This document shows positions 14,316 to 58,662 of a stretch of 64,000 nt of DNA, piece after piece (within the stretch, counting starts at the first letter, position 1; every line of letters begins with the position of its first letter). The stretch covers positions 68,886-132,885 of the forward strand of contig CAZPCB010000002.1 of assembly GCA_964585065.1 (NCBI GenBank), given 5' to 3'. The notes beneath the pieces were generated by a model. It made no database searches and had not been told where the DNA came from. It was given only the letters and a program-made list of their open reading frames with translations. The position numbers and the translations under genes are program-made. This stretch comes from an uncultured Candidatus Saccharibacteria bacterium. Lineage in GTDB: Bacteria; Patescibacteriota; Minisyncoccia; SW-4-49-11.

Positions 14316-14343
14316 TACCAATGTTCCACGTGGAACATTGGTA
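14316..14343. promoter_or_regulatory. 28-bp perfect palindrome TACCAATGTTCCACGTGGAACATTGGTA in divergent intergenic region (copy 1 of 3)
   Basis: Direct reading; reverse complement identical; located between divergent genes 14259(-) and 14551(+). Confidence 0.5.
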
Positions 14344-17798: not shown

Positions 17799-19058
17799 AT
17801 GAAAAAGGTAAGTATATCAATAGTATTGGGGTTAATAGGAATTAGTATTCCTTTTTTAGTACGCACAACCCTTATAGCCTATCCATTACAAGGAGTTAAT
17901 TCCCCCTATCTTACAATATATCTATATAGTTTGGATATATTACTTTTACTGATGTGGGGATATTTTTTGTTCACTGCAAAAAAACTACCATTTAGTCACA
18001 ATAATATTGTGGATAAGTTGTGGGTAATTTTATTTTTTCTTCTCATTTTTCGTGGAATATATACCGAATATCCCCTTATAAGCTGGGTATATGTAGTTAG
18101 ATTATATTTGGGTATAAGTATTGTTTGGTATATCTCTCGATTACAGAATTGGGGCAATTCTTTGGGTTTGATTGCTGAAGGATTTGTTATTGGAATGTTT
18201 GGGCAGACAATAATTGCTATTACTCAAAGTATATTACAAAAGAGTCTTAATTTACCATTAGTTGTCGAGCCGGCCCTATCCCCACTTTTAGCAGGAATAT
18301 CCAAAACTATCATCAATGGAGATGTATTTATTCGGGCATATGGAACTTTTCCTCACCCTAATATCTTGGCTTTTGCTGGTCTTGTGGCATTGCTTATCAT
18401 ATACGCTCCTATATTTACTCGAAAACAATCATTGCTATTATATGCTTGTATTCTTCTAGTTATTGGATTTGTGGATCATTATCTACTCACATCTATACAG
18501 GCATTTACTATTACTATACTTACGGTATTATATCTTGGATATGGGAAAAGCATACAATTTCCCCAATGGTTTATTCGAGTAAGTGTTTGGTCTCTGCATA
18601 TACTTATTCTATTAGCATTCTCTAAAACTGCTTTTATACTTGCTCTTATACTAGATATTATATATTTGACATTAGCAAGAAATTCTCAATTGTTCCACGT
18701 GGAACAATTTCAAAATAATATCCGAAGTATAGGAAGAATAGTATTGAGGGTTGGTGCTTTGGGAATATTGTTAATTACTCTCATTATCCCTTATCCCCAA
18801 ATTATCGCAACAATATCTAAAAGGATTAATTATATGGCAGATGCTTGGCAAATGATTATGAATAATTGGTTTTGGGGTGTTGGACTGGGGCAATATGTTG
18901 CTAATCTCCCGAGCGGGGGTAGAGAATTCTGGCAATATGAGCCTGTACATAATATTATACTTTTGCTTTGGAGTGAAATTGGGTTATTGGGACTAGGTCT
19001 TCTTATTGCTATTATTATATTAGAGTATTATACGAGAACTTATGGATACAAAAAATAA
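17799..19058 (+). CDS. O-antigen ligase/polymerase (Wzy_C/PglL-like) family polytopic membrane protein
   Basis: About 10-12 TM helices; periplasmic-loop region WQMIMNNWFWGVGLGQYVAN typical of O-antigen ligase domain. Confidence 0.55.
   Translation: MKKVSISIVLGLIGISIPFLVRTTLIAYPLQGVNSPYLTIYLYSLDILLLLMWGYFLFTAKKLPFSHNNIVDKLWVILFFLLIFRGIYTEYPLISWVYVVRLYLGISIVWYISRLQNWGNSLGLIAEGFVIGMFGQTIIAITQSILQKSLNLPLVVEPALSPLLAGISKTIINGDVFIRAYGTFPHPNILAFAGLVALLIIYAPIFTRKQSLLLYACILLVIGFVDHYLLTSIQAFTITILTVLYLGYGKSIQFPQWFIRVSVWSLHILILLAFSKTAFILALILDIIYLTLARNSQLFHVEQFQNNIRSIGRIVLRVGALGILLITLIIPYPQIIATISKRINYMADAWQMIMNNWFWGVGLGQYVANLPSGGREFWQYEPVHNIILLLWSEIGLLGLGLLIAIIILEYYTRTYGYKK
18688..18709. repeat. 22-bp perfect palindrome AATTGTTCCACGTGGAACAATT inside the O-antigen-ligase-like CDS (copy 2 of 3)
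   Basis: Direct reading; encodes LFHVEQF in frame. Confidence 0.5.
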
Positions 19059-40128: not shown

Positions 40129-42837
40129 ATGCAAATAGAATACAAACAGCGCAAAGGATTTACGTTAATTGAGATACTTTTGGTAATAGCCTTAATGGGT
40201 ATATTATTAACTACCGTGCTAGTTGCAATTAACCCTAGTAGACAATTAGCACAAGTTCGTAATGCTCAGAGACAAAGTCATATGCAGGCTTTGCAAAAGG
40301 CCTTAGACTTTTATGCTACTAAAAATGAGGGATCATATCCTCCAGGAGTTACAAGTTCTTATCAAGATGTATGTAATACGGGGACTGAAATAGTAGGAGG
40401 AGTAACCAATTGTACGGGTAAATTAGATTTACGTATTCTTGTCCCAACATATATTGTCGGTATTCCAAAAGATTCACAAGCTATTGGTACTAGCTCGGGA
40501 TATTCGGTAGCACTTAATTCATCTAATAACGGTATTAGTTTAACTAGCGATAAAGCAGAATTAGGATCTACTATCGCTATTAATAAAATAATACAATCAA
40601 GCTATTCAGGATATATAGATTCTAGCTTGGATTCAGATAAACCGGTTGGTTTTGATAATGCTGTGAATGTTGTTTTGCAGCAAAGCAATGGTAAGTTAAT
40701 TGTAGGGGGTTATTTTACTAGTTATAAAGGAGTACCAGCAAATTCTATAATACGCTTAAATAGTGATGGAAGTATAGATAACACTTTTAATGTGGGAACG
40801 GGATTTGATTCTGGTATTAGTACAGTAGTAAGGCAAAGTGATGGAAAATTCGTCATTGGGGGACAATTTGGTAATTATCAAGGTGTGTCAGCAACTAGAA
40901 TAATACGTCTTAATAGTGATGGGAGCAGAGACAATACATTCAATATGGGGACTGGTTTTGCTAGTAATTACTTTGATGGTGCTGTGACTAACATTTTACT
41001 ACAAAGTGATGGAAAATTAGTAGTAGCAGGATATTTTTGGACATACCAAGGAGTATCGGCAAATGGAATAATACGTCTTAATAGTGATGGGAGCAGAGAC
41101 AATACATTTAATATGGGGACTGGTTTTGATAGTGGAACTAATAGTATTATACTACAAAATGATGGTAAGGTTTTAGTAACAGGCTCTGAATTTACTAGTT
41201 ATCAAGGTGTTTCAGCCAGTAGAATAATACGTCTTAATAGTAATGGGAGTAGAGACAATACATTTAATATGGGTGCAGGATTTGATAATTATGTAACTAA
41301 AGTAATACAACAAAGTGATGGAAAATTTGTCATTGGTGGAGGCTTTACCACCTATCAAGGAGTATCCGCAAATAGAATAATACGTCTTAATAGTGATGGG
41401 AGCAGAGATAATACATTTAATATCGGGACCGGTTTTAATGGAAATGGTACCTTCTCAGGATTTTGGGACGGTGGGATAAGTAGTATTGTGCAGCAAAGTG
41501 ATGGGAAATTGGTCATTGGTGGAGGATTTACTAGTTATCAAGGTGTTTCTTCGGGTACTAGCATCATACGTCTTAATAGTGATGGGAGTCGAGACAATAC
41601 ATTTAATATAGGTACTGGTATAGATACTTATGTAAGGATAGTTATGCAGCAGAGTGATGGTCAAATAATTGTAGGGGGAGACTTTACGACTTATAAAGAA
41701 GTCCCAGCAAATAAAATAATACGTCTTAATAGTGATGGGAGTCGAGATAGTAGTTTTAATATAGGGCTTGGACTAAATGGTGCTGTGAATACTGTTATAC
41801 AGCAAAGTGATGGTAAGCTAGTGATAGGAGGAGCATTTACTGGATATAGGGAAGTATCTTCAAAGAGAATAATGCGTTTAAATAGTGATGGAAGTCGGGA
41901 CAGTAGTTTTAATATCGGGACTGGTTTTGATGGGGGAGATGTTTATATCGTTGTACAGCAGAGTGATGGTAAATTAATGGTAGGGGGCTATTTCAGTAGT
42001 TATCAAGGAAGCTCAGCAAATAATATAATACGCTTAAACGCAGATGGAACTCGAGATAATACTTTTAATGTGGGAACCGGCTTCAGCTGTGCTTGTGGTA
42101 GTGGTGTAGGATCTATTGTACAACAAGCAAGTGGTAAATTAATCGTAGTGGGAAGCTTTACTACGTATCAAGGAGGGTCAGTAACAAATATAATACGCCT
42201 TAATAGTGATGGAAGTAGAGATAATACTTTTAATGTGCATGCTGGGTTGAATGCTGGGGCGCAGCAAATAATACAGCAAAGTGATGGTAAATTAATAGTG
42301 GTAGGACTCTTTACTCAGTATTTGGGAGTTTCAGCTAATAAAATAATACGTCTTAATAGTGATGGAAGTAGAGATAATACTTTTAATGTGGGAACGGGAT
42401 TTGATTCTGGTATATCTACGTTAATGCAACAAAATGATGGAAAATTAGTCATAGCAGGTAACTTTAGTACATATCAAGAATTGGCTGTAAATGTCATAAT
42501 ACGTTTAAATAGTGATGGGAGTCGGGATAGTGGTTTTAATTTTGTAAGTTCACCATTAAATTCTACACTAATGACTATTGCACAGCAAAGTGATGGTAAA
42601 TTAGTGATGGGAGGAAGCTTTTCGGGATCACAAGGAAATAGAATAATGCGCTTAAATAGTAATGGGAGTATTGATAATACCTTTAATACAGGTACTGGAT
42701 TTAATCCAGAAGATACTATTGGTTGGAATTGGGTATCTAGCATTATAAAACAAAGTGATGGCCAATTAGTTGTTGGTGGAACATTTACTAATTATAAAAA
42801 TCAACCAGCAGGATATCTGATCAGATTGAATCCATAA
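40129..42837 (+). CDS. Giant type IV pilin-like protein (leader MQIEYKQRKG/FTLIEI) fused to about 20 tandem delta-60-like beta-propeller repeats
   Basis: Class III signal peptide; repeated unit IIRLNSDGSRDNTFNxGTGF...QQSDGKLVIGGxFTxYQGVSAN about every 50-60 aa, matching delta-60 repeat consensus (DGSLDTSFG...QSDGKIVVAG). Confidence 0.6.
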   Translation: MQIEYKQRKGFTLIEILLVIALMGILLTTVLVAINPSRQLAQVRNAQRQSHMQALQKALDFYATKNEGSYPPGVTSSYQDVCNTGTEIVGGVTNCTGKLDLRILVPTYIVGIPKDSQAIGTSSGYSVALNSSNNGISLTSDKAELGSTIAINKIIQSSYSGYIDSSLDSDKPVGFDNAVNVVLQQSNGKLIVGGYFTSYKGVPANSIIRLNSDGSIDNTFNVGTGFDSGISTVVRQSDGKFVIGGQFGNYQGVSATRIIRLNSDGSRDNTFNMGTGFASNYFDGAVTNILLQSDGKLVVAGYFWTYQGVSANGIIRLNSDGSRDNTFNMGTGFDSGTNSIILQNDGKVLVTGSEFTSYQGVSASRIIRLNSNGSRDNTFNMGAGFDNYVTKVIQQSDGKFVIGGGFTTYQGVSANRIIRLNSDGSRDNTFNIGTGFNGNGTFSGFWDGGISSIVQQSDGKLVIGGGFTSYQGVSSGTSIIRLNSDGSRDNTFNIGTGIDTYVRIVMQQSDGQIIVGGDFTTYKEVPANKIIRLNSDGSRDSSFNIGLGLNGAVNTVIQQSDGKLVIGGAFTGYREVSSKRIMRLNSDGSRDSSFNIGTGFDGGDVYIVVQQSDGKLMVGGYFSSYQGSSANNIIRLNADGTRDNTFNVGTGFSCACGSGVGSIVQQASGKLIVVGSFTTYQGGSVTNIIRLNSDGSRDNTFNVHAGLNAGAQQIIQQSDGKLIVVGLFTQYLGVSANKIIRLNSDGSRDNTFNVGTGFDSGISTLMQQNDGKLVIAGNFSTYQELAVNVIIRLNSDGSRDSGFNFVSSPLNSTLMTIAQQSDGKLVMGGSFSGSQGNRIMRLNSNGSIDNTFNTGTGFNPEDTIGWNWVSSIIKQSDGQLVVGGTFTNYKNQPAGYLIRLNP

Positions 42838-45171: not shown

Positions 45172-47001
45172 TTATGCTAGGGGAAGATTTGAGGGCGGAG
45201 AAAGTGTTGGATTAGCTTGTAATTCATTATCCAATGTATAATTGGGGTATAATTGTTCCCACAGCTCTTGGGGAGAATTATTTGGTGTTTTTAAATTCCT
45301 AAGATCAAGTAATCCAAATTGAATCATTTCTCTTGCAGTCTCAAGATTAATTCCAGATACTAATATGAGATTTTTTAGTTCAGGATATTTGAGAATTTCT
45401 TCTATTACAGCTTTCTGTTCCAAATATACCGTATCTTTGGTATCAGAAATCTGGGTATCTGTATTGTCAAAAGAAGAATTCCTGAATAATCTAGTTGAGC
45501 CGCTAAGTGCTGTTTTTATATATTCCTTGAATTTAGATGGACTTACTTGTTTCGATTGTAGAGAGCGAATACTTTCATAATATGTTTTTACACAATCTAT
45601 ATAAGTACCCCCAGATTGTTTGGTAGCCATGGCTCTCAGGTAATTAGGTTGAGGAGGGCTTTCATATCCAAATAATTCTTGAGATATTTGATCTTGATAA
45701 TACATAGCCCCACCTTCTTGGAATAATTCAGCTCTATCTCCGGCAATTTGACTGGAATGTGTATAGAGAGGTAAACCAATTTGGGCAGTATTTTCTCTTT
45801 GAAGAATATGAATTATTTCATGAGTAGCTGCCTTGGTAATTATTTTCTGAATATCCATTTCGGTAGCAGGGATTAATAATGTTTTACTTTGACTATCTAT
45901 TGCAAGAGTGTCTTTACCCGGTCTAATATAGCATCTCCATTTATTATCTGCCGGGTTTATATTTTTGGTTACTTGTTCAGCATCGGCGGGATATTCGCTT
46001 AATAGGTCATAGCTTGCGAGAATTTGGTCTAAATATTGTTTTGCCATTTCAGGAGTGATATTCTTCTCTTCTAATTTTTCTTGGTCTAGGCCTTTTTGTA
46101 AGAGGATTTGAGGCTTTTCTTGATTAATTGATTTGTTTAATTCAGCAATATGATCAGCCATTGTTAATAGATGATTATCTACTTGATTATAATTACCCGT
46201 ATCAGTATCAAGTGTACTTACTCCATATATAAATTTATCTAATTTGTATGGGGGTTTATGTGGAGTATGGGATTCTTCGCTCCGTAAAAATGTTTCTTGT
46301 TCTTTAGTTTCTGCAATGATGACATTAATTCTTTTAATTAATGCTTGTACGCGAAATATTTTAGCATGTATTAAAGCTTTACTTATATCGGTAGTGTCAG
46401 AAGCCTCTTCGGCATATAAGTCAGATCGCTTTTGTTTTAATTCTTGCCTTATTGCTTCTAACCCTTCAATTTTTGCTGTTAAGTTAGCAGGATATTGAAT
46501 ATAGGTGAGTTTTTCTGGGTTTTCAATATTCTCTATATCAAGTTCTCCCGTATCAGGATGAATATGTTGAGATAAAGTCTCTACCATAGTATCAGTATTC
46601 CAATCCGTACTCATTTTTACTAAATCTGTTATGATTTTGGGTTTTAATGTTCTCAGAATTGCAATATTTTCCCTAATATCAATGTCTCCTTCAAGGGATA
46701 CAAATTCAGGAATTTCTTTTAAAATAGCCTGACCCTCTGATGTATCAAAATACTCGGGATATAAAACTTTTTTACCAGTTGCTAACTTATAGTATTCTGC
46801 TAGTTTTTCTACAAAAGGATTCTCAAATTCTATTAAGTTCTGCTTTTCCTCCTCAGAAAGTATTTCCTTTTTTCTTTCACCAGATTCATATTGAGCTATT
46901 TCATATAATAATATTTGAGCTGAATAGGATGGACGCTCTGGATATAATTGAGGTTTATGTTCAGATTTAGGTTCAGTATTCTCAGAAGATTCTATCGACA
47001 T
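45172..47001 (-). CDS. DUF1704/MATCAP-like gluzincin metallopeptidase homolog (HExxH + QEGGA motif)
   Basis: ATHEIIHILQ (HExxH) followed about 30 aa later by AELFQEGGAMYY resembling the QEGLA motif of TIGR02421/DUF1704. Confidence 0.45.
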   Translation of the reverse strand: MSIESSENTEPKSEHKPQLYPERPSYSAQILLYEIAQYESGERKKEILSEEEKQNLIEFENPFVEKLAEYYKLATGKKVLYPEYFDTSEGQAILKEIPEFVSLEGDIDIRENIAILRTLKPKIITDLVKMSTDWNTDTMVETLSQHIHPDTGELDIENIENPEKLTYIQYPANLTAKIEGLEAIRQELKQKRSDLYAEEASDTTDISKALIHAKIFRVQALIKRINVIIAETKEQETFLRSEESHTPHKPPYKLDKFIYGVSTLDTDTGNYNQVDNHLLTMADHIAELNKSINQEKPQILLQKGLDQEKLEEKNITPEMAKQYLDQILASYDLLSEYPADAEQVTKNINPADNKWRCYIRPGKDTLAIDSQSKTLLIPATEMDIQKIITKAATHEIIHILQRENTAQIGLPLYTHSSQIAGDRAELFQEGGAMYYQDQISQELFGYESPPQPNYLRAMATKQSGGTYIDCVKTYYESIRSLQSKQVSPSKFKEYIKTALSGSTRLFRNSSFDNTDTQISDTKDTVYLEQKAVIEEILKYPELKNLILVSGINLETAREMIQFGLLDLRNLKTPNNSPQELWEQLYPNYTLDNELQANPTLSPPSNLPLA

Positions 47002-47055: not shown

Positions 47056-48477
47056 TTATTTTCTAGGATCAATGATAAATCGCTTTAGAGAGTTTTCCCC
47101 AAGAATTATAGGGTATTTGAGCCCAGTACGAGTAATAATATTAGCTTTTGTTTCAAATATTTCATCACCTACTTGAATTTTAATATAAATAATAGGTCTA
47201 TAGGAATATCCATGACTACTATGAACCTTTGAAACTCCAACTATGTCAGGATGCTCTTCAATTTTTTGCCATATTTTATCTTTGGATAAAGTATTTATCT
47301 CGTCTAAAGTAAGTACAGGTTTAATATGAAATGTTTGCATATATGTTAATACATCCTTATATCCCAAGGCAATAGCTAGGCTCTCATCAATAGATGTTTT
47401 TCCCGCACCAGTATCAATTTTTGCTTGTACTTTTTGCTGCTGATCATCTTTTCCAAATAAGGTAATTTCCTCAATAAGCCCAATCACTTGTCGTCCAGTA
47501 ATTTCCTCAATTTCTTCTTCAATTTCTCCTCCGAACAAATCTTTTGCCAGTCTAATAGCTCTTTTTACTGTTTTTACTTTAAGACCTTTTACTTTTTGTA
47601 ATCTTTCTTTGAGTGGTGCGAGATTAGCAATTTGAATAGCGAGTCCTGGACGGGCATTAGCCTCTAATACTACAGGTCCTGCATCACGGTCAATGGCAAT
47701 ATCTACTCCCGTAAACCCTAATTTAGTGACATCAGCAGTACGAATCGCAATATCCAATATAGTATTCCAATACGGTATACGTATACCAGACAGACTAGTT
47801 TCTGTTCCTGGTATGGTATCGATAAATTTTTCTCGCATAATAGCATTGGTAGTAACTCCTGTTGCCATATCAATACCGATACCAATTCCGCCTAGATGAA
47901 GATTGGCTTTACCATCAGATTCCTTGGTAGGAATTCGTATCATTGCCATTACAGGAATACGATTGAATACAATCACGCGAATATCAGGAATTCCTTTATA
48001 GGCTAAGTGTTTGAATGATTTATTAATCTTAATTCTCTCCTCAAAGAAGGCCACATCGGGGCTATTGGTACGAGAATACGTACCATCAAGAATATTACTA
48101 ATATGATTATGTATCATGGTCTCACTCAGTTTTACCCCCTTGGTTTTCACCCATTGACGCTCTCCATCGCCGGTTCTTTTTTTGTCCTCTCCAAATATTA
48201 CCACAATTCCTTCCCCTCCAAATCCAGCAGTTGGTTTTAATACAAAACTTTTGGGAAGTTTATTATAATCAAAATTATTGAGTTTATCATATGATTGAAC
48301 AGTTGCTATGAGTTTTGGGGTAGGAATATTATTTTTTTGTAATTCTTTTTTGAATTTAATTTTATTATCTACTAATTTAACCCATTTGCTATAATTGTAT
48401 GGTTTAATATAAGAAAGATTGCGGGCATTCATCCCGAGTATTTTTTGACTAAATACAAATGATTCTAGCCAATTCAT
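47056..48477 (-). CDS. RimK-like ATP-grasp ligase (alpha-L-glutamate-ligase-related, GMNxRN N-terminus) fused to C-terminal retropepsin-like (RimB-type) aspartyl protease domain
   Basis: LGMNARNLSYIKPYN N-term; ATP-grasp core DIRVIVFNRIPVMAMIRIP...GKANLHLGG; C-terminal AKIDTGAGKTSID (DTGA) aspartyl protease motif. Confidence 0.6.
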   Translation of the reverse strand: MNWLESFVFSQKILGMNARNLSYIKPYNYSKWVKLVDNKIKFKKELQKNNIPTPKLIATVQSYDKLNNFDYNKLPKSFVLKPTAGFGGEGIVVIFGEDKKRTGDGERQWVKTKGVKLSETMIHNHISNILDGTYSRTNSPDVAFFEERIKINKSFKHLAYKGIPDIRVIVFNRIPVMAMIRIPTKESDGKANLHLGGIGIGIDMATGVTTNAIMREKFIDTIPGTETSLSGIRIPYWNTILDIAIRTADVTKLGFTGVDIAIDRDAGPVVLEANARPGLAIQIANLAPLKERLQKVKGLKVKTVKRAIRLAKDLFGGEIEEEIEEITGRQVIGLIEEITLFGKDDQQQKVQAKIDTGAGKTSIDESLAIALGYKDVLTYMQTFHIKPVLTLDEINTLSKDKIWQKIEEHPDIVGVSKVHSSHGYSYRPIIYIKIQVGDEIFETKANIITRTGLKYPIILGENSLKRFIIDPRK

Positions 48478-48480
48478 AGC

Positions 48481-49122
48481 CTATTGATTGCTAATAATTT
48501 TACGGAATCGGATATATTCAGAAATTCGGAGCCCCTCATAGCGTCCAAGGAATATAATTCCTGCAAATATAATCAAAATAATCCAAGGATTATAGAATAC
48601 TAAATCTCTTAAACTTGTAGTTGCTATGATAAGATTTCCAATAGCAGCAAGAATTAATGTCTCTACTGAGAGGATAACAGCAGTACGATACCCTTTTTCC
48701 ATTTGAGCATTGATGAATTTTTCTACCAAGGTGATAATAATCAAAATCTGATAAATCGAAGCCTGTACAAATACCGTGCTATCAGAGAATATTCCCCATA
48801 CTAGGCTCAAAAACATAGATAAGGCAGTAATAGAAAGTATCAAAGCCATTTTGGGTAAATACAAAATACGAATTTTGCGGAGTAAATATCTGACAATAGA
48901 AGCAATTACGAGAGATACAATAAAAATACTCACTCCATATTTGAAGCCAATTTGTGTTAAAGCAAAGGTGATAATAAGCGGTGTATAAATACCAAAAGCC
49001 TTAATCCCTACAATTTGTCGGGCTGCTACGATAAATCCTGCCATAATCGGAAACATCAAAAGAATGTCGATGGTTTCACGTGGCACACCATTATCCATAA
49101 GATATTGGAAGAAGATATCCAT
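48481..49122 (-). CDS. Seven-transmembrane protein (7TM component commonly paired with RimK-like ATP-grasp systems; no transglutaminase domain)
   Basis: Seven predicted TM helices over 213 aa; first gene of the minus-strand operon. Confidence 0.45.
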   Translation of the reverse strand: MDIFFQYLMDNGVPRETIDILLMFPIMAGFIVAARQIVGIKAFGIYTPLIITFALTQIGFKYGVSIFIVSLVIASIVRYLLRKIRILYLPKMALILSITALSMFLSLVWGIFSDSTVFVQASIYQILIIITLVEKFINAQMEKGYRTAVILSVETLILAAIGNLIIATTSLRDLVFYNPWIILIIFAGIIFLGRYEGLRISEYIRFRKIISNQ

Positions 49123-52892: not shown

Positions 52893-53252
52893 ATGGATGA
52901 TATATATAGAGAATATATACTTGATTTATATCGTAACCCCCTCAATAAAGGAAAATTAAATCATTATACTCATCAAAAACAGGGTTTTAATCCTAATTGT
53001 GGGGATGATATTTGGGTATATCTGGATATTCAGGATGAAAGAGTAAAAGAGGCAAGTTTTGATGGGTCTGGCTGCGCTCTATGTATTGCAGGGGCATCTA
53101 TTATAACGGAGAAATTAAGAGGATTATCTATTACTGAAATATCTACTATTTCGGCCGAGCAATTATATCAATGGCTTGGTATTAATATGGAAAATACCCG
53201 CATAAAATGCGTGACTTTGGCTTTACGCACCGCTCAAGAGATGATAGTATAA
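52893..53252 (+). CDS. sufU: SufU/IscU-type Fe-S scaffold/sulfur acceptor (NifU N-terminal domain)
   Basis: NPNCGDD and GSGCALCIAG cysteine motifs, 119 aa. Confidence 0.75.
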   Translation: MDDIYREYILDLYRNPLNKGKLNHYTHQKQGFNPNCGDDIWVYLDIQDERVKEASFDGSGCALCIAGASIITEKLRGLSITEISTISAEQLYQWLGINMENTRIKCVTLALRTAQEMIV

Positions 53253-53287: not shown

Positions 53288-54001
53288 ATGCTAAAATTAG
53301 AACATATAATCATCAAAAAAGATGAGAAAAGTATTATCAAGGATATATCAATTGATATAGAGGAGGGAAATATTCATTATCTCATGGGACCAAATGGAAG
53401 TGGTAAAAGTACTCTGGCTTTAGCTATTGCAGGATATCCAGAATATAATATTGAAGGAAATATATTTTTTAAAAATGAGAATATTATAGAGTTGTCGCCA
53501 GATAAAAGAGCTAAATTAGGACTATTCTTATCTATGCAATATCCTCCAGCCATAAAAGGGGTAAGTATTTTAAGCCTTATCAAAAATGCCTATCAAGCTA
53601 TCAATGGACCAGTAAATGTATTAGAATTCCGTACCCGAGTGGTTGAGGAGGTGAAGAGACTTGGGTTGGATGAATCAATTCTTTCTCGAGGAGTGAATGA
53701 AGGGTTTTCTGGTGGAGAGCGAAAACGATTAGAATTATTACAACTAATTATCTTGAAGCCCAAATTAGCAATATTAGATGAGCCAGATTCAGGGCTTGAT
53801 ATTGATGCCTTAAAATTAATGTCATCAGAGCTCAAACAGCTGAATCAAAATGGTATGACTTTTATTATTATTACTCATCAAGGACAATTAGAACTTATAC
53901 CTAATAAAGTGACAGTAATCAAAAATGGTATTGTGGTAGAAAAGGGTGATATTCAAGTTTTATCTCGGATTCAAGCACAAGGATATAATGCATATATATG
54001 A
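53288..54001 (+). CDS. sufC: Fe-S cluster assembly ATPase SufC
   Basis: Walker A LMGPNGSGKSTL, signature FSGGERKR, Walker B LAILDEPDSGLD. Confidence 0.9.
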   Translation: MLKLEHIIIKKDEKSIIKDISIDIEEGNIHYLMGPNGSGKSTLALAIAGYPEYNIEGNIFFKNENIIELSPDKRAKLGLFLSMQYPPAIKGVSILSLIKNAYQAINGPVNVLEFRTRVVEEVKRLGLDESILSRGVNEGFSGGERKRLELLQLIILKPKLAILDEPDSGLDIDALKLMSSELKQLNQNGMTFIIITHQGQLELIPNKVTVIKNGIVVEKGDIQVLSRIQAQGYNAYI

Positions 54002-54285
54002 TTACAAAAGCAGATATTATATCAGTATGTAAGACAATTCAAGATCCAGAAATTAATATAGATATTTATACTATTGGCCTAATTTATGATATTACCATTA
54101 GCGAGCAGGATGATATTATTATTTTGATGACATATACTACGCCACTTTGTCCATTTGGGGGGCGTATACAAAAAGAATTAAAAGTAGCTCTTGCTATTCT
54201 TAAACCCCATTCTATTACTATTAATGTAACTTTTACTCCTCCTTGGAAAGTAAGTGACGAATTAAGAGAGGCTCTAGGAATATAG
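53998..54285 (+). CDS. DUF59/MIP18-family Fe-S assembly protein (SufT-like)
   Basis: 95 aa, ICKTIQDPEINIDIYTIGLIYDI..., position at end of suf cluster. Confidence 0.7.
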   Translation: MITKADIISVCKTIQDPEINIDIYTIGLIYDITISEQDDIIILMTYTTPLCPFGGRIQKELKVALAILKPHSITINVTFTPPWKVSDELREALGI

Positions 54286-54348
54286 GTTTGTTTGAAAAAA
54301 ACTGTATTCAGTGTTATAATATTTTTATAATTCAAAACTAAAACCAAT

Positions 54349-56178
54349 ATGGTAAAACAGTTAAATAAAAACCCAAAGCTGTTTATATTGCTTGCATCGT
54401 TCGTCGCCATAGGTTTGATATCATTTGCGGGTACCTTTAATGTTGTGCATGGGAGGCAACAACAGCAACAACAGCAGCAGCAAACATCTAAATGTAATAA
54501 GTGTGGCCAATGTACAAATTGTTTGGCTTCAATCCAAAACAACTGGAGTAGGTTCCTTTGCGTGATTTTTCCACAATTCTGCTCGAGTTTAACTACATGT
54601 ACAGCTCCTGCTGTACAGCCATCCCAACCTTTTGTATGTACAGATGTACCAGTTTCTTACGTAGAAAGACTTTCACAATATAATATTAATGGTCTAGATG
54701 CTTCAATTTCAAGTAATGGTAAATATACAGTAAAGGGTATGACTACACATGGATCTTATAGCTGTGATACTATATTAAAAGCTATACTTGATTATAACAC
54801 TCCTCCTCCGACTAGTACATTTTCCGGGTACCAGTCTCTCTGGAACCGCCCTGTTCAACCTTCTACTCCTAAGTATAATGTTTGTGCCTATCCGAGTAGT
54901 GTCAGTGAACAGCGTCTAGAAAGAGTAAATTGGTCCTTTAATAATATGACAGCTGTCAAAGATTGTGGTAATGTAAAAGGAGTATATGCAGAATGCAATA
55001 ATGGAGCTGTTAATTTTGGTGCTTATCCAGGTTTTACAACAATAGGTGCAATTGCTAGTCCTTATCAAGCATTTACAGATCATAGCACTATAGTACAAAA
55101 TGCAGCCCCTAATCAATATAGATGGGGTGGTTTGTATCAGTATGGTATAAGCTCTGACAATGCAAAGCCAGGACCATATTCTTTTTACAGCACATCTTAT
55201 AATTATGAAACATTAAAATTAGCATTTAACTATGAAATGGTATACAGTAGTCTGCAACAAGCTGGTCCCTGTTGGTCTCCATTTCCATCTTTCAGAGAAT
55301 GCCATAGAGTACATTACTTTACCTATACTCCAAGAGTGCAACAGCCCAATATTACTCTAAACTCATATCTAATTAAGCATAGAGATAGACCAAGTCAACT
55401 GATTTATCGAAATAGTCCAATTAGAAAATCTTGGCAAATAGAGAATGCTAATTCTGGAAGTTGTAATATAGAAACGAAAAATTCTTCGGGAGAAGTTATA
55501 CCATTTCTTTCTAAAAGCGGATTGAATATTGACTTTAAACAAGGTAAGCAAATTGTAGACTTCTTACCTATTAATGGTGCAACAGGACAATATCTTGAAA
55601 AGGTAGATCAGAATGCAGATTATACAATTGGATATGATCCAAATAGAATACAGCCCGGTGTTTATAAGAGTATATTAACATGTAGTCTTAGTATAAACTG
55701 CTCATCAGGTTCGGGTACAGATGATTGTAAGAGAATCTCTCCAGGTAATCCTTATAGTAGCCCAATATCAGTTTCTGTTGATCAAGACTTTACAATATCT
55801 CCAGATCAAATAGTTACTTTGGCAGCGTCAGCTAAGCCAACTATCGTTTATAATAAATTTAGAAAAACTAAAATACTAGCTAATACAAAAGGTGCAAACG
55901 TGAATGATAAGCATAAGTATACACTTACAAAAATCCCTATAGGGTATAAGTTGACTTCATCTGCGACAATAGATAAGGTGGCTGATGCCTCAGGTACTAC
56001 TAACGCCTTCTGGGATGTTGAATTAGTTGTTAATCCCCAAACAAATGGAAGTGATGCAATAATAGGTGCATCAGAATTTGTTGTAGAAATGACTGATGAG
56101 CCATATGATAATCTTTATACGGCTAAAGCAAAAGTAACTTATCTTGGCAATAGAGATGTAAGAGAAGTTGCTAAATAA
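54349..56178 (+). CDS. Hypothetical secreted Cys-rich protein with N-terminal anchor and polyQ tract (609 aa)
   Basis: TM/signal FILLASFVAIGLISFAG, then Q9 tract, CNKCGQCTNC and many further Cys. Confidence 0.4.
   Translation: MVKQLNKNPKLFILLASFVAIGLISFAGTFNVVHGRQQQQQQQQQTSKCNKCGQCTNCLASIQNNWSRFLCVIFPQFCSSLTTCTAPAVQPSQPFVCTDVPVSYVERLSQYNINGLDASISSNGKYTVKGMTTHGSYSCDTILKAILDYNTPPPTSTFSGYQSLWNRPVQPSTPKYNVCAYPSSVSEQRLERVNWSFNNMTAVKDCGNVKGVYAECNNGAVNFGAYPGFTTIGAIASPYQAFTDHSTIVQNAAPNQYRWGGLYQYGISSDNAKPGPYSFYSTSYNYETLKLAFNYEMVYSSLQQAGPCWSPFPSFRECHRVHYFTYTPRVQQPNITLNSYLIKHRDRPSQLIYRNSPIRKSWQIENANSGSCNIETKNSSGEVIPFLSKSGLNIDFKQGKQIVDFLPINGATGQYLEKVDQNADYTIGYDPNRIQPGVYKSILTCSLSINCSSGSGTDDCKRISPGNPYSSPISVSVDQDFTISPDQIVTLAASAKPTIVYNKFRKTKILANTKGANVNDKHKYTLTKIPIGYKLTSSATIDKVADASGTTNAFWDVELVVNPQTNGSDAIIGASEFVVEMTDEPYDNLYTAKAKVTYLGNRDVREVAK
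54457..54483 (+). repeat. (CAA/CAG)9 trinucleotide tract encoding Q9
   Basis: caacaacagcaacaacagcagcagcaa read directly. Confidence 0.9.
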
Positions 56179-56214
56179 GCATAAAAGTTTTAAAAACACG
56201 ATAGAATTCATTTT

Positions 56215-56961
56215 ATGGTAAGCAGTAAAAATATTTTACTTATTTTCATACTATTACCCATATGTATATATTTAACTGCTACATCATATGGAATACTTCA
56301 AAAAGTACAGTTTTATCCAGAATGTCAGAATTACAGTTATGAGGAAAGAAAAAATTTCCTAAGTAAAACAACATATATTCATGGCACTATTACGGCTATA
56401 AAAGATGATAAAATAGATGTATATGTAAATTATAATCCTAGAAATAGATGGAAATGTTCACAGATGGAATCTCCATATAAAGACTATTTAGGAGCTACCA
56501 CAAAGATATATTCAGTTAACTTAAATCAGAATACCCCAATTTACTCAATGTATGAAGCTATTAGTACAAGTATTCCAAATGACCATACTCCTAGGCAAAA
56601 TCCTTCTCCTGAAGTCCAAATACCATCAGAAAATACATTTACTGGTTTAAGGTATAAAAAAGAAGATCTCACAATTGGATATAGAGTTGCAGTACTAGCA
56701 TCAAAACCAGTATTGAAAGAAAATTTATTTGATGCTGAATTGGTATTGATTTATCCAGAAAGAGATATTACATATTCTGCAATAATAACTATAATTATAG
56801 TTATTATTGCAGGTATAGGAAGCTATTACACAATAGAAGTTATTACTCATATACTTTATTATTTCACGAAAAATACCAATATACTTCTATTCTCTACAGT
56901 GATAAGACCAGTGGGAGCTATTGGGTTTTTTATATGGTATTTTTTATCACATTATACTTAA
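56215..56961 (+). CDS. Hypothetical bitopic membrane protein (N-terminal TM, soluble middle, C-terminal TM pair)
   Basis: Hydrophobic segments at both ends; very AT-rich. Confidence 0.35.
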   Translation: MVSSKNILLIFILLPICIYLTATSYGILQKVQFYPECQNYSYEERKNFLSKTTYIHGTITAIKDDKIDVYVNYNPRNRWKCSQMESPYKDYLGATTKIYSVNLNQNTPIYSMYEAISTSIPNDHTPRQNPSPEVQIPSENTFTGLRYKKEDLTIGYRVAVLASKPVLKENLFDAELVLIYPERDITYSAIITIIIVIIAGIGSYYTIEVITHILYYFTKNTNILLFSTVIRPVGAIGFFIWYFLSHYT

Positions 56962-56964
56962 TTT

Positions 56965-57561
56965 ATGAGATTACTTCAAAATTTTGTAGAAAATATATAT
57001 AATTTTATACCATTCGATAGTCAGCTTCTGACGGGATATATTATAATGCAAATAATAATTTTCACAATTATTAATATGTTTATACTATTAATTCAAATAT
57101 TAATAGTAAGATCTAAAATAAAAGAAACATTATATATAACTATCCCAATTCTTTTAATTAATAAAATATTAATTTTACCTATTCTCAACGATATAGTATT
57201 TATAACCCATGTATCATTAATATATGTTATGGTGTTCATAACCATATCAACTTTATTAGATATAGAAAGCTTTAAACTATATACGAATGATTACAAAAAA
57301 TTATGTAAATTTTATCAAATCATATCTATAATTTTACAAATACTTATTATAATTATTTTTATAACTCAGCCAATACTAAATCTACAAACTATCATTGGAA
57401 TAACTATATATTCGATACCCTTGATAATTGATATTGTTAATTTTAAATCAAATTTTAAAAATACGTTTAGACTAAATATTTATAAATATATATACCAATA
57501 TATCACTATAACTATATTAATTTTATTATCAAAAATAATAGTCCCTATACATTTTATGTAA
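56965..57561 (+). CDS. Hypothetical highly Ile-rich polytopic membrane protein (198 aa)
   Basis: About 6 TM helices; codon usage extremely AT-biased. Confidence 0.35.
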   Translation: MRLLQNFVENIYNFIPFDSQLLTGYIIMQIIIFTIINMFILLIQILIVRSKIKETLYITIPILLINKILILPILNDIVFITHVSLIYVMVFITISTLLDIESFKLYTNDYKKLCKFYQIISIILQILIIIIFITQPILNLQTIIGITIYSIPLIIDIVNFKSNFKNTFRLNIYKYIYQYITITILILLSKIIVPIHFM

Positions 57562-57589
57562 AACAACATAAAAGAACTCTCTCATATAA

Positions 57590-57679
57590 TAGTATCTCAA
57601 CTAAATCTAGTACTATTAATATCTCTTTACCCTGCCCTGGAAAATCAGTGATGAATTAAGACGGGCTTTAGGGGTGTGA
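57590..57679 (+). pseudogene. Ghost 3'-end fragment of a DUF59/SufT-like gene (encodes YLFTLPWKISDELRRALGV*)
   Basis: Roughly 75 percent nt identity and clear peptide similarity to the end of 53998..54285 (TFTPPWKVSDELREALGI*), including matching stop position. Confidence 0.5.
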
Positions 57680-57683
57680 ATTC

Positions 57684-57711
57684 TTGACAAGTTTTTGGAG
57701 GGTGCTATACT
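57684..57711 (+). promoter_or_regulatory. Sigma70-like promoter TTGACA-16-TGcTATACT
   Basis: Consensus -35, extended -10, 25 nt upstream of 57736 start. Confidence 0.45.
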
Positions 57712-57735: not shown

Positions 57736-58662
57736 ATGAAATCACATCTTTTATCTATAATAGCAGCAAGTATTATTGTACTTGGTGGATCATTTTTAGT
57801 GGTAAATACTATTTTAGCTAAGGATGAGGCTTCAGAGTTAGATAAAAAATCTCAAGAATCACAACGTGAATTTGAGAAGCAGGCACAAAAAGTAAGAGAA
57901 ATAAAACCTCAAGAAGATACAAAACGCCCACCTTTGGTAAAGAAAGAGGATTCAGAAGATGATAATTCAGAAGATGAATCACAAAAAACTTTATTAGAGC
58001 GACAAAAAGAGCAAAATCAGCAATTAATGGAAAGACAAAAAGAACAAACTAAAAAAATGTCTGAAAAAACAAGAGAAGCTGAGAAGCAAGGTCTAGAGAA
58101 AAAAGATAAGGAGGATAGCCCAAACCCAAATGATGAAGGCCAAGATGATTCAGTAGATTCTTTGTCTGAGCAAATTACTGTAGGGCCAGAGCGAGAGAAG
58201 AAAATCAAGGATAAGTGTCAGGAAATTAGTAATAAAATTGCTGAACATCAAAATGAATTAAAGGCAAAAGCTGAAAAAAGACTTGGTAAATATAATAAAA
58301 TTATTACTCGATTAGAAGCAGTTTCAACAAAACTAGCAGATTTAGGTGTAGATGTTACCACATATAATGGATATGTAACTGAGGTAAAGTCTCAAGTTGC
58401 TGTATTAAATCAATCAATTAATACCTATATCGCTTCTCTTGGTACTAATACTACTCAACTTTGTACTAAGGAAAAAGCTGCAACAGAATTAAATACCCGA
58501 AAAGCTGATTTGAAGGTTATTATTGCCCAAGATAAAGCAATAAGAACTTATATCAAAGAAACAATAATTCCTTACCTCAGAAGTATAAAACCGCAACAAC
58601 CAACTTCAACAGAACAAGAGAATACAACAGTACCGTCCTCAAACCCCGCCCCAATCCAATAA
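57736..58662 (+). CDS. Secreted/anchored coiled-coil protein rich in K/E/Q (308 aa)
   Basis: N-terminal hydrophobic segment, long charged heptad-like region. Confidence 0.4.
   Translation: MKSHLLSIIAASIIVLGGSFLVVNTILAKDEASELDKKSQESQREFEKQAQKVREIKPQEDTKRPPLVKKEDSEDDNSEDESQKTLLERQKEQNQQLMERQKEQTKKMSEKTREAEKQGLEKKDKEDSPNPNDEGQDDSVDSLSEQITVGPEREKKIKDKCQEISNKIAEHQNELKAKAEKRLGKYNKIITRLEAVSTKLADLGVDVTTYNGYVTEVKSQVAVLNQSINTYIASLGTNTTQLCTKEKAATELNTRKADLKVIIAQDKAIRTYIKETIIPYLRSIKPQQPTSTEQENTTVPSSNPAPIQ

What the first reader, a model, noticed from the sequence alone, without database searches (positions are those of the whole stretch)
54286..57679. 3.3-kb low-GC island bracketed by the DUF59 gene end and a diverged ghost copy of that same end
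The last about 60-90 nt of the DUF59 gene (..TFTPPWKVSDELREALGI*) recur at 57590-57679 as ..LFTLPWKISDELRRALGV*. That is about 75 percent nt identity with the same stop position, followed by a strong promoter for the next gene. Between the two copies lie three genes absent from conserved families: a 609-aa Cys-rich polyQ secreted protein, a bitopic membrane protein and an extremely Ile-rich 6-TM protein, all more AT-rich than the flanks. This is the footprint of an insertion or duplication event with partial duplication of the target gene end. It resembles integration of a small mobile cassette carrying a secreted effector/toxin-like protein plus membrane immunity-like proteins.
Basis: seen in the sequence. 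Interest (0 to 1): 0.65.

Follow-up and report, generated by a model that had tools for sequence, protein, structure and literature searches.

The report
Duplicated gene end flanking accessory island
A dead 77-base copy of the end of an iron-sulfur-assembly gene marks the spot where a three-gene cell-surface module was recombined into this tiny Paceibacteria (CPR) genome. It looks like an ordinary recombination scar at a variable hot spot, and nothing points to a toxin-carrying mobile element.

Summary
The last ~77 nt of DUF59/SufT (54211-54288) recur at 57603-57679, frame-shifted, with the stop codon in register (local score 63 against 19±2.7 in shuffles). A strong promoter follows each copy.

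A close relative (L010) has the precise empty site, so the 3.4 kb is a true indel. The cassette reading is weak:
- There is no recombinase, no terminal inverted repeats and no phage, plasmid, defence or toxin signal.
- The same three genes sit at the same locus in six more distant Paceibacteria lineages. Four of those loci reach the far end of the island, and none has a ghost.
- The island genes have diverged about as much as the core genes.
- P609 has average GC. Only the two membrane genes are AT-rich, and P198 is 28% Ile.

The working DUF59 tail (last 51 nt, stop, promoter) is of a foreign, L040-like type. The ghost keeps the native type and is collinear with the right flank. In sister strains the ghost's 3' 46 nt are overwritten by short gene-conversion patches.

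Best reading: a recombinational insertion scar (single-crossover or one-sided illegitimate recombination) at a hot spot with four alternative occupants. P609 looks like a surface protein with Ig-like domains. Interest is modest.

The parts
53998..54288 (+). DUF59/SufT-like Fe-S assembly gene (95 aa plus TAG stop), last gene of the sufBD-sufS-sufU-sufC-DUF59 cluster
   Evidence: Pfam PF01883, E 3.9e-11. ORF list. Same gene order in relatives.
54211..54288 (+). Repeat copy 1: the working 3' end of DUF59
   Evidence: Aligns with 57606-57672, score 63 against 19±2.7 in shuffles.
54238..54450 (+). Tract of L040-like (foreign lineage) type: last 51 nt of DUF59, the TAG stop, the 63-nt intergenic promoter region and the first ~100 nt of P609
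   Evidence: Window against L040: 164/240 identical before 54237 and 50/51 from there to the stop, Fisher p 1.7e-10. The tract is 90.8% identical to L040 against 72-75% on either side.
54292..54320 (+). Promoter-like site upstream of P609 (TTGAAA-17-TATAAT, TG extended -10)
   Evidence: It is about 94% identical to L040's P609 promoter, which in L040 is a paralogue of L040's own P308 promoter.
54349..56178 (+). P609: membrane-anchored or secreted Cys-rich protein. A hypervariable linker (poly-Q here) follows the anchor, and there are two C-terminal Ig-like beta-sandwich domains.
56215..56961 (+). P248: membrane protein with three hydrophobic segments (N-terminal TM, beta-rich ectodomain, C-terminal helical hairpin)
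   Evidence: Hydropathy. Low-confidence AF2 model. Only 4 clusters in 5.8 billion sequences. A 26%-identical homologue sits next to a P609 homologue at another locus in L051.
56965..57561 (+). P198: about 6-TM protein, 27.8% Ile, 18.6% GC
   Evidence: Protein 70-82% identical (tblastn) in L023, L025, L039 and L040.
57562..57574 (+). 13 nt after the P198 stop that are still homologous to the island-bearing relative L040 (right end of island-type sequence)
   Evidence: blastn homology with L040 ends at 57574. AACAACATAAAAG against AACAAAATAAAAG.
57575..57602 (+). 28-nt filler of unknown origin at the illegitimate joint
   Evidence: Its 20-nt core is found only in the window and L008 among the 51 loci then fetched. 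The same stretch appears in the L052 and L053 ghost regions, with one mismatch in L052. It shows no significant similarity to DUF59.
57603..57632 (+). Ghost, left part (DUF59 positions about -77 to -48): frame-shifted and identical in all four ghost-bearing genomes
57633..57679 (+). Ghost, right part (last ~47 nt plus TGA): keeps an ORF-like ..PWKISDELRRALGV*, is of the native clade type, and is polymorphic among relatives through short-patch gene conversion
   Evidence: Closest to the L010 working end, 37/47. L052 and L053 differ at 4 sites in 3100 nt, then at 12 sites in these 46 nt. L008 and L052 differ at codon positions 2, 1 and 8.
57684..57711 (+). Resident promoter of P308 (TTGACA-16-TATACT)
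   Evidence: Same sequence and spacing as after the DUF59 stop in the empty-site relative L010.
57736..58662 (+). P308: N-terminally anchored Lys/Glu-rich coiled-coil-like protein, the first gene of the resident right flank (not part of the island)
   Evidence: 93.8% nt identity to L010 but 81.9% to L008.

Best explanation
WHAT IT IS. The 3.4 kb is an accessory three-gene cell-envelope module:
- P609, an anchored, disulfide-rich surface protein with Ig-like domains;
- P248, a 3-TM protein with a small ectodomain;
- P198, an Ile-rich protein with about six TM segments.

The module belongs to the normal gene pool of this Paceibacteria family. In eight of the nine carrier loci it follows DUF59/SufT directly. 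In L039 the suf genes are inverted, so sufS abuts P609 and DUF59 is not on the fetched DNA. Wherever the DNA reaches that far, P308-P168-zwf follow. The module is present in some lineages and missing in others.

HOW THE GHOST AROSE. In the window's lineage an island-bearing and an island-free version of the locus were joined by general, not element-encoded, recombination.
- On the left, the exchange point lies in the last ~50 nt of DUF59, the most conserved DNA stretch there. The working gene now ends with a tail, stop codon and promoter of an L040-like lineage.
- On the right, there is an illegitimate joint: 13 nt past the P198 stop, then 28 nt of filler, then position -77 of the resident DUF59.
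- The resident gene's own last 77 nt therefore survive as a dead copy, directly in front of the resident P308 promoter.

This is the product expected from either of two routes. One is single-crossover (Campbell-type) integration of a circularised fragment. The other is one-sided, homology-facilitated illegitimate recombination.

The two repeat copies still interact: short gene-conversion patches repeatedly overwrite the ghost's 3' two-thirds.

SHOWN: the duplication, the empty site, the breakpoints, the mosaic identity and the conversion patches.
INFERRED: the recombination pathway, the direction of transfer and the surface or adhesion role.
For: 1. The repeat is significant, and L010 has the precise empty site with the same stop-to-ATG spacing.
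2. Homology with L010 resumes at 57603. It is 94.5% over the next 3 kb, against 88.7% on the left flank.
3. There is a sharp breakpoint after 54237. The working tail matches L040 at 50/51 and clade mates at 38/51, p 1.7e-10.
4. Elsewhere the island has no ghost. It is in the same place in L023, L025, L036, L039, L040/41 and L042. The four loci that reach the P198-P308 junction show no ghost; L036 and L042 end inside or just after P609. In L023 and L039 only ~60 nt separate P198 from P308.
5. Island genes are about as diverged from these relatives as core genes are. Carriers are scattered over the core-gene trees.
6. Recombination is pervasive here. Window against L008 alternates 98-100% and 58-85% tracts. 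SufU is 87% identical between strains whose SufC is 100% identical.
7. L052 and L053 are 99.9% identical over 3.1 kb and then differ at 12 of the 46 ghost-right positions. L053 carries a patch of the working copy's type.
8. There are no mobility genes, TIRs, or phage, plasmid or defence signals.
9. PMC3240628 reports that single crossovers of circularised fragments duplicate part of the homologous target (109-950 bp). It also describes HFIR as joining one homologous and one illegitimate end.
Against: 1. A second, independent insert exists at the same gene end. L009/L044 carry a one-gene DUF6498 insert flanked by a PERFECT 41-nt direct repeat of the DUF59 end. That hints at a site preference a generic mechanism does not predict.
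2. The left breakpoint (-51) lies downstream of the ghost's left end (-77). A single linear replacement therefore cannot make the product. It needs a circular intermediate, a template switch or two successive events.
3. L040-type and clade-type tails are only 38/51 identical. That is poor substrate for RecA-type crossover, so the left joint may also be microhomology-mediated.
4. The L040-like tract is 91% identical while the rest of the island is 75-86%. The tract may be a later patch that says nothing about the ghost's origin.
5. In L040 and L039 the island is flanked by direct repeats of the promoter and 5'UTR. That pattern is also cassette-like.
Confidence: 0.55

Rival explanations
1. Site-specific cassette system. 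The conserved last ~40-50 nt of DUF59 would be an attachment site. Small cargo cassettes (the three-gene module, the DUF6498 gene) would carry their own copy of that gene end. A recombinase encoded elsewhere in the genome would insert them, restoring the gene and displacing the native end, as integrative elements do at tRNA 3' ends.
For: - Two different cargos sit at the same gene end, each bracketed by a duplicated DUF59 end.
- The repeat ends at the stop codon in both.
- The working tail is of foreign type and the displaced tail of native type.
- The exchange interval in the working copy (-63 to -33) overlaps the boundary between invariant and variable ghost parts (-57 to -50).
- The same intergenic site has four alternative occupants.
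Against: - No recombinase lies in or next to any insert.
- Repeat lengths differ: 41 nt against about 77 nt.
- The four carriers that reach the P198-P308 junction have no DUF59 ghost; in L040 and L039 a promoter repeat flanks the island instead, and more weakly in L023 and L025.
- The island co-diverges with core genes.
- Ghost-right variation is explained by 46-nt conversion patches in near-clonal strains, not by independent integrations.
- The flanks on the two sides of the island have different nearest relatives.
Confidence: 0.15
2. Duplicative insertion at a break. Foreign DNA would be captured at a staggered break or by replication template switching (leave at one point, return 26-41 nt upstream). 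This gives an unusually long target-site duplication without any homology-driven step.
For: - L009 shows a clean 41-nt perfect target duplication around 670 nt of unrelated DNA. Neither insert end shows detectable homology to the target, by eye on the sequence.
- In the window the resident segment -77 to -51 is present on both sides of the insert, and 28 nt of filler sit at the joint.
- The nearby L008 deletion used 15-nt microhomology.
Against: - It does not explain why both events hit the last 80 nt of one gene.
- The left joint in the window falls in a conserved stretch, as expected for homology-guided exchange.
- It cannot be told apart from the best explanation with sequence alone.
Confidence: 0.15
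3. Vertical history only. An old tandem duplication of DUF59 would have decayed, with the downstream copy reduced to 77 nt. The three genes would always have been there.
For: The island appears ancestral to the family and is about as diverged as core genes.
Against: - The ghost exists only in one shallow clade (window, L008, L052/53).
- Its right part is still 77-81% identical to working alleles. A neutral remnant as old as the island should be unrecognisable, since core genes are about 70-75% identical at that depth.
- The sister L010 has the precise empty site.
Confidence: 0.05
4. Function-level rival: the island is a polymorphic toxin or effector gene with membrane immunity proteins.
For: P609 is secreted or anchored, Cys-rich, and has a hypervariable segment. 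Two small membrane proteins follow it.
Against: - No toxin, immunity or defence family matches.
- Variability sits just after the N-terminal anchor, whereas the C-terminus is the most conserved part.
- Polymorphic toxins usually carry their variable toxin domain at the C-terminus (background knowledge, not tested here).
- The confident folds are Ig-like sandwiches.
- In L051, P248-like and P609-like genes co-occur, with multi-TM genes beside them (no detectable similarity to P198), in a cell-envelope-type neighbourhood.
Confidence: 0.05

Closest known systems
Single-crossover (Campbell-type) integration of circularised DNA, and homology-facilitated illegitimate recombination (HFIR), as described in PMC3240628
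   Same: Foreign DNA is inserted next to a conserved anchor gene. Part of the homologous target is duplicated on the far side of the insert. One joint is homologous and one illegitimate. No element-encoded enzyme is needed.
   Different: The duplication here is shorter (about 77 nt and 41 nt, against 109-950 bp in that study). The anchor identity is low (38/51). The pathway is inferred from sequence only, in an uncultivated CPR bacterium.
Integrase-mediated genomic islands that target the 3' end of a gene (classically tRNA or tmRNA genes) and supply a replacement 3' end (background knowledge)
   Same: The working gene end is element- or donor-derived. The native end is displaced to the other side as a partial direct repeat. 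Relatives show presence/absence with a precise empty site.
   Different: There is no integrase in or beside the island. The target is a protein-coding suf gene. Repeat length differs between inserts. Most carriers of the island have no such repeat.
Genomic islands and inter-Patescibacteria gene transfer reported for aquifer CPR genomes (PMC12455944)
   Same: A small accessory region in a streamlined CPR genome that is exchanged mainly among related Patescibacteria.
   Different: Here the junctions are resolved to the nucleotide, with a displaced gene end and ongoing gene conversion. No prophage or defence content is present.
Surface proteins built from tandem Ig-like/FnIII beta-sandwich domains (RbmA, fibrillar adhesin repeats, MG domains), compared with P609
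   Same: The C-terminal ~250 residues are predicted with fair confidence as two beta-sandwich domains. The protein has an N-terminal anchor or signal and many cysteines.
   Different: TM-scores are low (0.1-0.3) and identity is about 10%. The N-terminal 350 residues are not modelled. No family membership can be claimed.

Membership tests
Integrative mobile element (site-specific recombinase, att site at a gene's 3' end) | Element-encoded or adjacent tyrosine/serine recombinase | tested here: not met
   The three island proteins and L009's insert protein have no recombinase family hit. Precomputed Pfam labels of neighbouring genes in related contigs show none. The rest of the genome was not scanned.
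Integrative mobile element (site-specific recombinase, att site at a gene's 3' end) | Direct repeats (attL/attR) bracketing the element, with a precise empty site in relatives | tested here: met
   Repeat 54211-54288 / 57603-57679. Empty site in L010 with the same spacing.
Integrative mobile element (site-specific recombinase, att site at a gene's 3' end) | The repeat accompanies the element wherever the element occurs | tested here: not met
   L023, L025, L039 and L040/41 carry the island without a DUF59 ghost.
Integrative mobile element (site-specific recombinase, att site at a gene's 3' end) | Circular excised form, or active excision in the population | not testable with these tools
   This needs read-level data from the source metagenomes.
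Recombinational insertion scar (single crossover / HFIR) | Partial duplication of the homologous target flanking the inserted DNA | tested here: met
   Pattern as described in PMC3240628.
Recombinational insertion scar (single crossover / HFIR) | One joint in homologous sequence and one illegitimate joint | tested here: met
   Left breakpoint in the conserved DUF59 tail. Right joint: island homology ends at 57574, then 28 nt of filler, and resident homology starts at 57603.
Recombinational insertion scar (single crossover / HFIR) | Donor and recipient are related, and the flanks are mosaic | tested here: met
Transposon / IS / MITE | Terminal inverted repeats, a short target-site duplication and a transposase | tested here: not met
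   No convincing inverted repeats at the island ends, only AT-rich chance matches at 75-85%. No transposase family.
Polymorphic toxin / immunity cassette | Recognisable toxin domain (usually C-terminal and variable) plus a cognate immunity gene | tested here: not met
   No Pfam, NCBIfam or PADLOC hits. The C-terminus is the most conserved part, and variability lies just after the N-terminal anchor. Folds are Ig-like.
Integron gene cassette | attC hairpin site and an IntI integrase with attI | not tested
   No attC model was run. No integrase was seen in the fetched flanks. The repeats are direct copies of a gene end, not imperfect palindromes.

The most novel reading that the evidence does not exclude
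The last ~40-50 nt of the suf-operon gene DUF59/SufT could be a genuine, recurrently used attachment site. At it, Paceibacteria would swap small cargo cassettes without a cassette-encoded integrase, either through a recombinase acting in trans or through a dedicated short-homology pathway. Each cassette would bring its own gene tail. Candidate cargos are the three-gene surface module, the DUF6498 membrane protein, and possibly the structured-RNA-like element of L024. That would be a minimalist cassette-exchange platform in ultra-small bacteria.
Probability: 0.12. Interest if true: 0.65.

Novelty: new member of a known kind. Interest (0 to 1): 0.3.

Why it matters
The finding gives a nucleotide-resolved example of how streamlined CPR/Paceibacteria genomes gain, lose and reshuffle accessory cell-surface genes.
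- A conserved housekeeping gene end serves as the recombination anchor.
- The native end is displaced as a ghost.
- The two copies keep converting each other.

It also defines an uncharacterised, very narrowly distributed module: P609 has 7 hits among 1.84 billion cluster representatives and P248 has 4 clusters. In the family sampled here the three genes travel together; in the one more distant lineage found (L051) P609-like and P248-like genes co-occur. The module is a candidate for cell-surface or host-attachment functions of these episymbiotic bacteria (inference).

For annotation, the finding warns against calling such repeat-flanked islets 'mobile elements' or 'toxin cassettes' from sequence appearance alone.

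Tried and rejected
- Low GC as a sign of foreign origin: rejected. P609 has genome-average GC. The low GC of P248 and P198 tracks their Ile/Tyr/Asn/Phe-rich composition.
- Island similarity to L040 as proof of recent transfer of the whole island: rejected. P248 and P198 are a few percent more conserved than core genes against every relative, and extreme AT bias inflates identity.
- Independent integrations of one cassette into three genomes, suggested by the variable ghost-right with codon-like substitutions: not upheld. L052 and L053 are near-clonal and differ only in a 46-nt patch, so gene conversion explains the variation.
- Homology between the P609 and P308 signal-peptide coding regions: not significant.
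- Extension of the ghost to the P198 stop: 57575-57602 shows no significant similarity to DUF59.
- RNA families in the island: none in Rfam, even at E up to 1.
- Phage or plasmid carriage: none.
- The upstream 609-aa ORF (45172-47001): unrelated by eye (different sequence, no N-terminal anchor); the equal length is a coincidence.
- Structure-based function for P248: the model is too poor (pLDDT 56) to search with.
- Source record: an exact-sequence look-up of the window's P248 found no record on file.


Full report
**Setting.** The window is AT-rich (35.1% GC). Its closest public relatives are metagenome-assembled genomes labelled Parcubacteria or Candidatus Paceibacteria. The gene order is:
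- sufB/D, sufS, sufU and sufC;
- DUF59 (53998-54288; PF01883, E 3.9e-11);
- three ORFs with no family hit: P609 (54349-56178), P248 (56215-56961) and P198 (56965-57561);
- P308 (57736-58662), P168, and glucose-6-phosphate dehydrogenase.

- A local alignment of the DUF59 3' end against the downstream DNA gives 54211-54278 against 57606-57672. That is 56 identities in 70 columns, with three small indels.
- The score is 63. Shuffles give 19.2±2.7. The next best place in the whole window scores 32.
- The ungapped core is 79% identical over 47 nt.
- The ghost's TGA is in register with the gene's TAG. An indel about 57 nt before the stop destroys the frame upstream.
- The two strongest promoter-like sites of the region follow the two copies directly, at 54292-54320 and 57684-57711.
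- One correction: the 'low-GC island' is really two low-GC membrane-protein genes, P248 at 28.2% and P198 at 18.6% (27.8% Ile). P609 is 35.9%, the genome average.

**It is a true indel.** Fifteen related loci came from one genome per species and sixteen from metagenomes.
- L010 (DUF59 92% identical) has DUF59 followed directly by the P308 promoter. There are 57 nt from stop to ATG, and the window has 56 nt from the ghost's stop to the same ATG.
- blastn homology with L010 ends at 54273 on the left. It resumes at 57603, inside the ghost.
- It then runs for 3 kb at 94.5% identity, against 88.7% on the left flank.
- The ghost is therefore the resident gene end, collinear with the resident right flank.

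**The working tail is the foreign one.** In an alignment of eight DUF59 genes the window matches its clade mates over the first 240 nt: L010 220/240, L009 223/240, but L040 only 164/240. Over the last 51 nt it matches L040 at 50/51 and L010 and L009 at 38/51. The best breakpoint is after 54237, Fisher p 1.7e-10.
- The L040-like tract continues through the TAG stop, the 63-nt promoter region and the first ~100 nt of P609. It is 90.8% identical, against 72-75% on either side.
- In L040 that promoter and 5'UTR is a paralogue of L040's own P308 promoter (score 55, next best 34). L039 shows the same (59 against 24).
- The tract therefore looks native to the L040-like lineage and imported into the window's clade.

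**The right joint is illegitimate.** Homology with island-bearing L040 stops 13 nt after the P198 stop, at 57574. Then come 28 nt, whose core is found only in the window and L008 among the 51 loci then fetched; the same stretch is also visible in the later-fetched L052 and L053 (57575-57602). The ghost follows.

**The island itself is not a stranger.**
- The same three genes occupy the same place in lineages whose DUF59 is only ~70% identical: L023, L025 (where they are decaying) and L040/41. L036 and L042 carry DUF59 followed by P609, but their DNA ends there. In L039 the trio precedes P308-P168-zwf, but the suf genes are inverted.
- No ghost is found in the four loci that reach the P198-P308 junction (L023, L025, L039, L040/41). 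P198 and P308 are only ~60 nt apart in L023 and L039.
- Other lineages of equal depth are empty: L011-L013, L026 and L027.
- On neighbour-joining trees of core proteins the carriers are scattered. L040 is sister to the window's clade in the Suf tree. L023 and L025 sit beside the empty L013 and L011.
- Island genes are about as diverged from these relatives as core genes are.
- The simplest history is an old family-specific module with repeated loss and recombinational re-gain.

**The locus is a recombination hot spot.** The same intergenic site has four states:
- empty;
- the three-gene module;
- a single DUF6498 membrane-protein gene in L009/L044, flanked by a perfect 41-nt direct repeat of the DUF59 end;
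- a ~400-nt structured, ORF-less insert in L024.

Further signs of exchange:
- Window against L008 alternates between 98-100% and 58-85% identity tracts.
- Two strains with identical SufC differ by 13% in SufU.
- L008 and L052 lack P248 and most of P198 through a 1,251-nt deletion between imperfect 15-nt repeats.

**The repeat copies are still active.** Four genomes carry the ghost: the window, L008, L052 and L053.
- The P198 3' flank, the filler and the ghost's left 30 nt are essentially invariant. The right 46-47 nt differ strongly.
- L052 and L053 encode the identical 612-aa P609 homologue. They differ at 4 positions in 3,100 nt, then at 12 of the next 46 nt. They are identical again in the promoter.
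- L053's patch matches the working copy's type.
- L008 and L052 differ mostly at third codon positions (2, 1 and 8 differences by codon position). All versions keep ..PWK.SD.LR.ALGV* and a stop.
- The ghost's 3' part is therefore repeatedly re-templated from working DUF59 ends by short-patch gene conversion. This explains why it looks younger than its frame-shifted left part. It also removes the need for independent integrations.

**Mechanism.** The product is a working gene with a donor tail, then the insert, then a displaced resident tail.
- Single-crossover integration of a circularised fragment gives this product. In E. coli such events duplicated 109-950 bp of the homologous target (PMC3240628).
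- One-sided homology-facilitated illegitimate recombination can also give it.
- A single linear replacement cannot, because the left breakpoint (-51) lies downstream of the ghost's start (-77).
- A circular intermediate, a template switch or two successive events are needed. In the two-event version a first insertion is followed by a later 223-nt patch from an L040-like donor.
- I cannot tell these apart from sequence alone. I found no recombinase, no terminal inverted repeats and no phage, plasmid or defence signal. I therefore prefer general recombination (0.55) over a dedicated site-specific system (0.15) or a break-associated duplicative insertion (0.15).
- The second insert, with its perfect 41-nt repeat, keeps the site-specific reading alive.

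**What the genes probably do (inference).**
- P609 has an N-terminal anchor or signal, then a hypervariable Cys-rich or poly-Q linker, then conserved Cys-containing regions.
- The AF2 model is poor overall (pLDDT 52.6). Residues ~350-600 are mostly 64-90, with one dip near 450-470, and form two beta-sandwiches.
- The family is tiny. There are 10 clusters in 5.8 billion sequences and 7 hits among 1.84 billion representatives. One hit is a 5,173-aa protein with 11 matched stretches, the best covering profile positions 84-152.
- A remote homologue in L051 sits at a different locus. Two P248-like genes (one by tblastn, E 8e-31; the second judged by eye) and multi-TM genes with no detectable similarity to P198 lie next to it.
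- At least P609 and P248 therefore travel together across lineages.
- A cell-surface or attachment role is the most economical guess. A toxin-immunity role has no support.

**Verdict.** The feature is real and nicely resolved, and it is of a known kind. HGT and genomic islands among Patescibacteria have been reported (PMC12455944). Interest is modest (0.3).

Noticed in passing
L009 10249-11000 (also L044): A 670-nt insert carries one gene for a 213-aa multi-TM protein (PF20108, DUF6498). It sits at the same place as the island and is flanked by a perfect 41-nt direct repeat of the DUF59 end (GAAAGTAAGTGATGAGTTGAGGCAGGCTTTGGGGGTATAAT). The ORF ends at a TGA inside the second copy. The only remote homologues (31-33%) lie in unrelated contexts, one of them a likely archaeal contig.
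   Followed up: partly
L024 362-800: A fourth occupant of the DUF59|P308 site. It is a ~400-nt ORF-less insert with a GC-rich core (460-699) closed by a 17-nt stem. The RNA fold z-score is -4.96 and there is no Rfam family. Short inverted ends (AGATGAGATA/TACCTCATCT) and a repeated promoter -35 fragment suggest a MITE-like element or a novel structured RNA.
   Followed up: partly
window 56777-56812: A perfect 36-nt palindrome (CTGCAATAATAACTATAA|TTATAGTTATTATTGCAG) lies inside the second TM-coding segment of P248 and is the longest in the window. It is absent from P248 homologues in L040, L023 and L039. Two independent Logan contigs (L001, L002) end exactly inside it, so it probably breaks k-mer assemblies.
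   Followed up: partly
L008 12177-12320 and L052 6825-6965, against window 56185-57464: L008 and L052 (P609 89.5% identical in L008) have lost P248 and the first ~155 codons of P198. The cause is a 1,251-nt deletion between imperfect 15-nt repeats A[AG][AT]TTTTAAAAA[CT]AC. A 44-codon P198 tail remains.
   Followed up: yes
L040 5310-5368 / 8611-8670; L039 1995-2070 / 5300-5372: In distant island carriers the island is flanked by direct repeats of the promoter and 5'UTR (~60-75 nt, ~80% identical, running up to the ATG of P609 and of P308). These are specific: the score is 55-59 against 24-34 for any other upstream region. A weaker version is seen in L023 and L025.
   Followed up: partly
L039 1-2070: The suf genes (sufS-sufU-sufC) are inverted relative to the island. 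sufS therefore abuts P609 head to head, and DUF59 is not in the fetched DNA. The inversion breakpoint coincides with the island's left boundary.
   Followed up: no
L001/L003/L004 against L002/window (SufU, window 52893-53252): Strains with 100% identical SufC and DUF59 have SufU only 87% identical and SufS 97.75% identical. This points to allele replacement by recombination within one species-level population.
   Followed up: no
window 14316-14343 and 18688-18709: Two perfect palindromes share the core TGTTCCACGTGGAACA (28 and 22 nt). They may be operator sites of one transcription factor.
   Followed up: no
window 40129-42837: A 902-aa protein has a type IV pilin-like N-terminus (GFTLIEILLV..). 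It carries about 17 repeats of a ~45-aa unit ending in IIRLNSDGSRDNTFN, which looks like a beta-propeller.
   Followed up: no
P0020 (hit): A 5,173-aa protein matches the P609 profile in 11 stretches. The best-scoring stretch covers profile positions 84-152 (PFEC..GKYTVKGMT..), so this P609 domain is probably a repeat unit of a giant protein.
   Followed up: no
L051 5485-10291: A remote P609 homologue (33% identical) lies at a different locus in a GC-richer genome. Two P248-like genes (the second judged by eye from a shared motif), each followed by a multi-TM gene, sit beside it. A VirD4/TrwB-like ATPase gene is nearby.
   Followed up: partly
window 47056-49122 (minus strand): An ATP-grasp (ATPgrasp_ST / RimK-like) gene is paired with a 7TM_transglut membrane protein gene just upstream of the suf cluster. 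An unrelated 609-aa ORF and an RNase H gene lie nearby.
   Followed up: no
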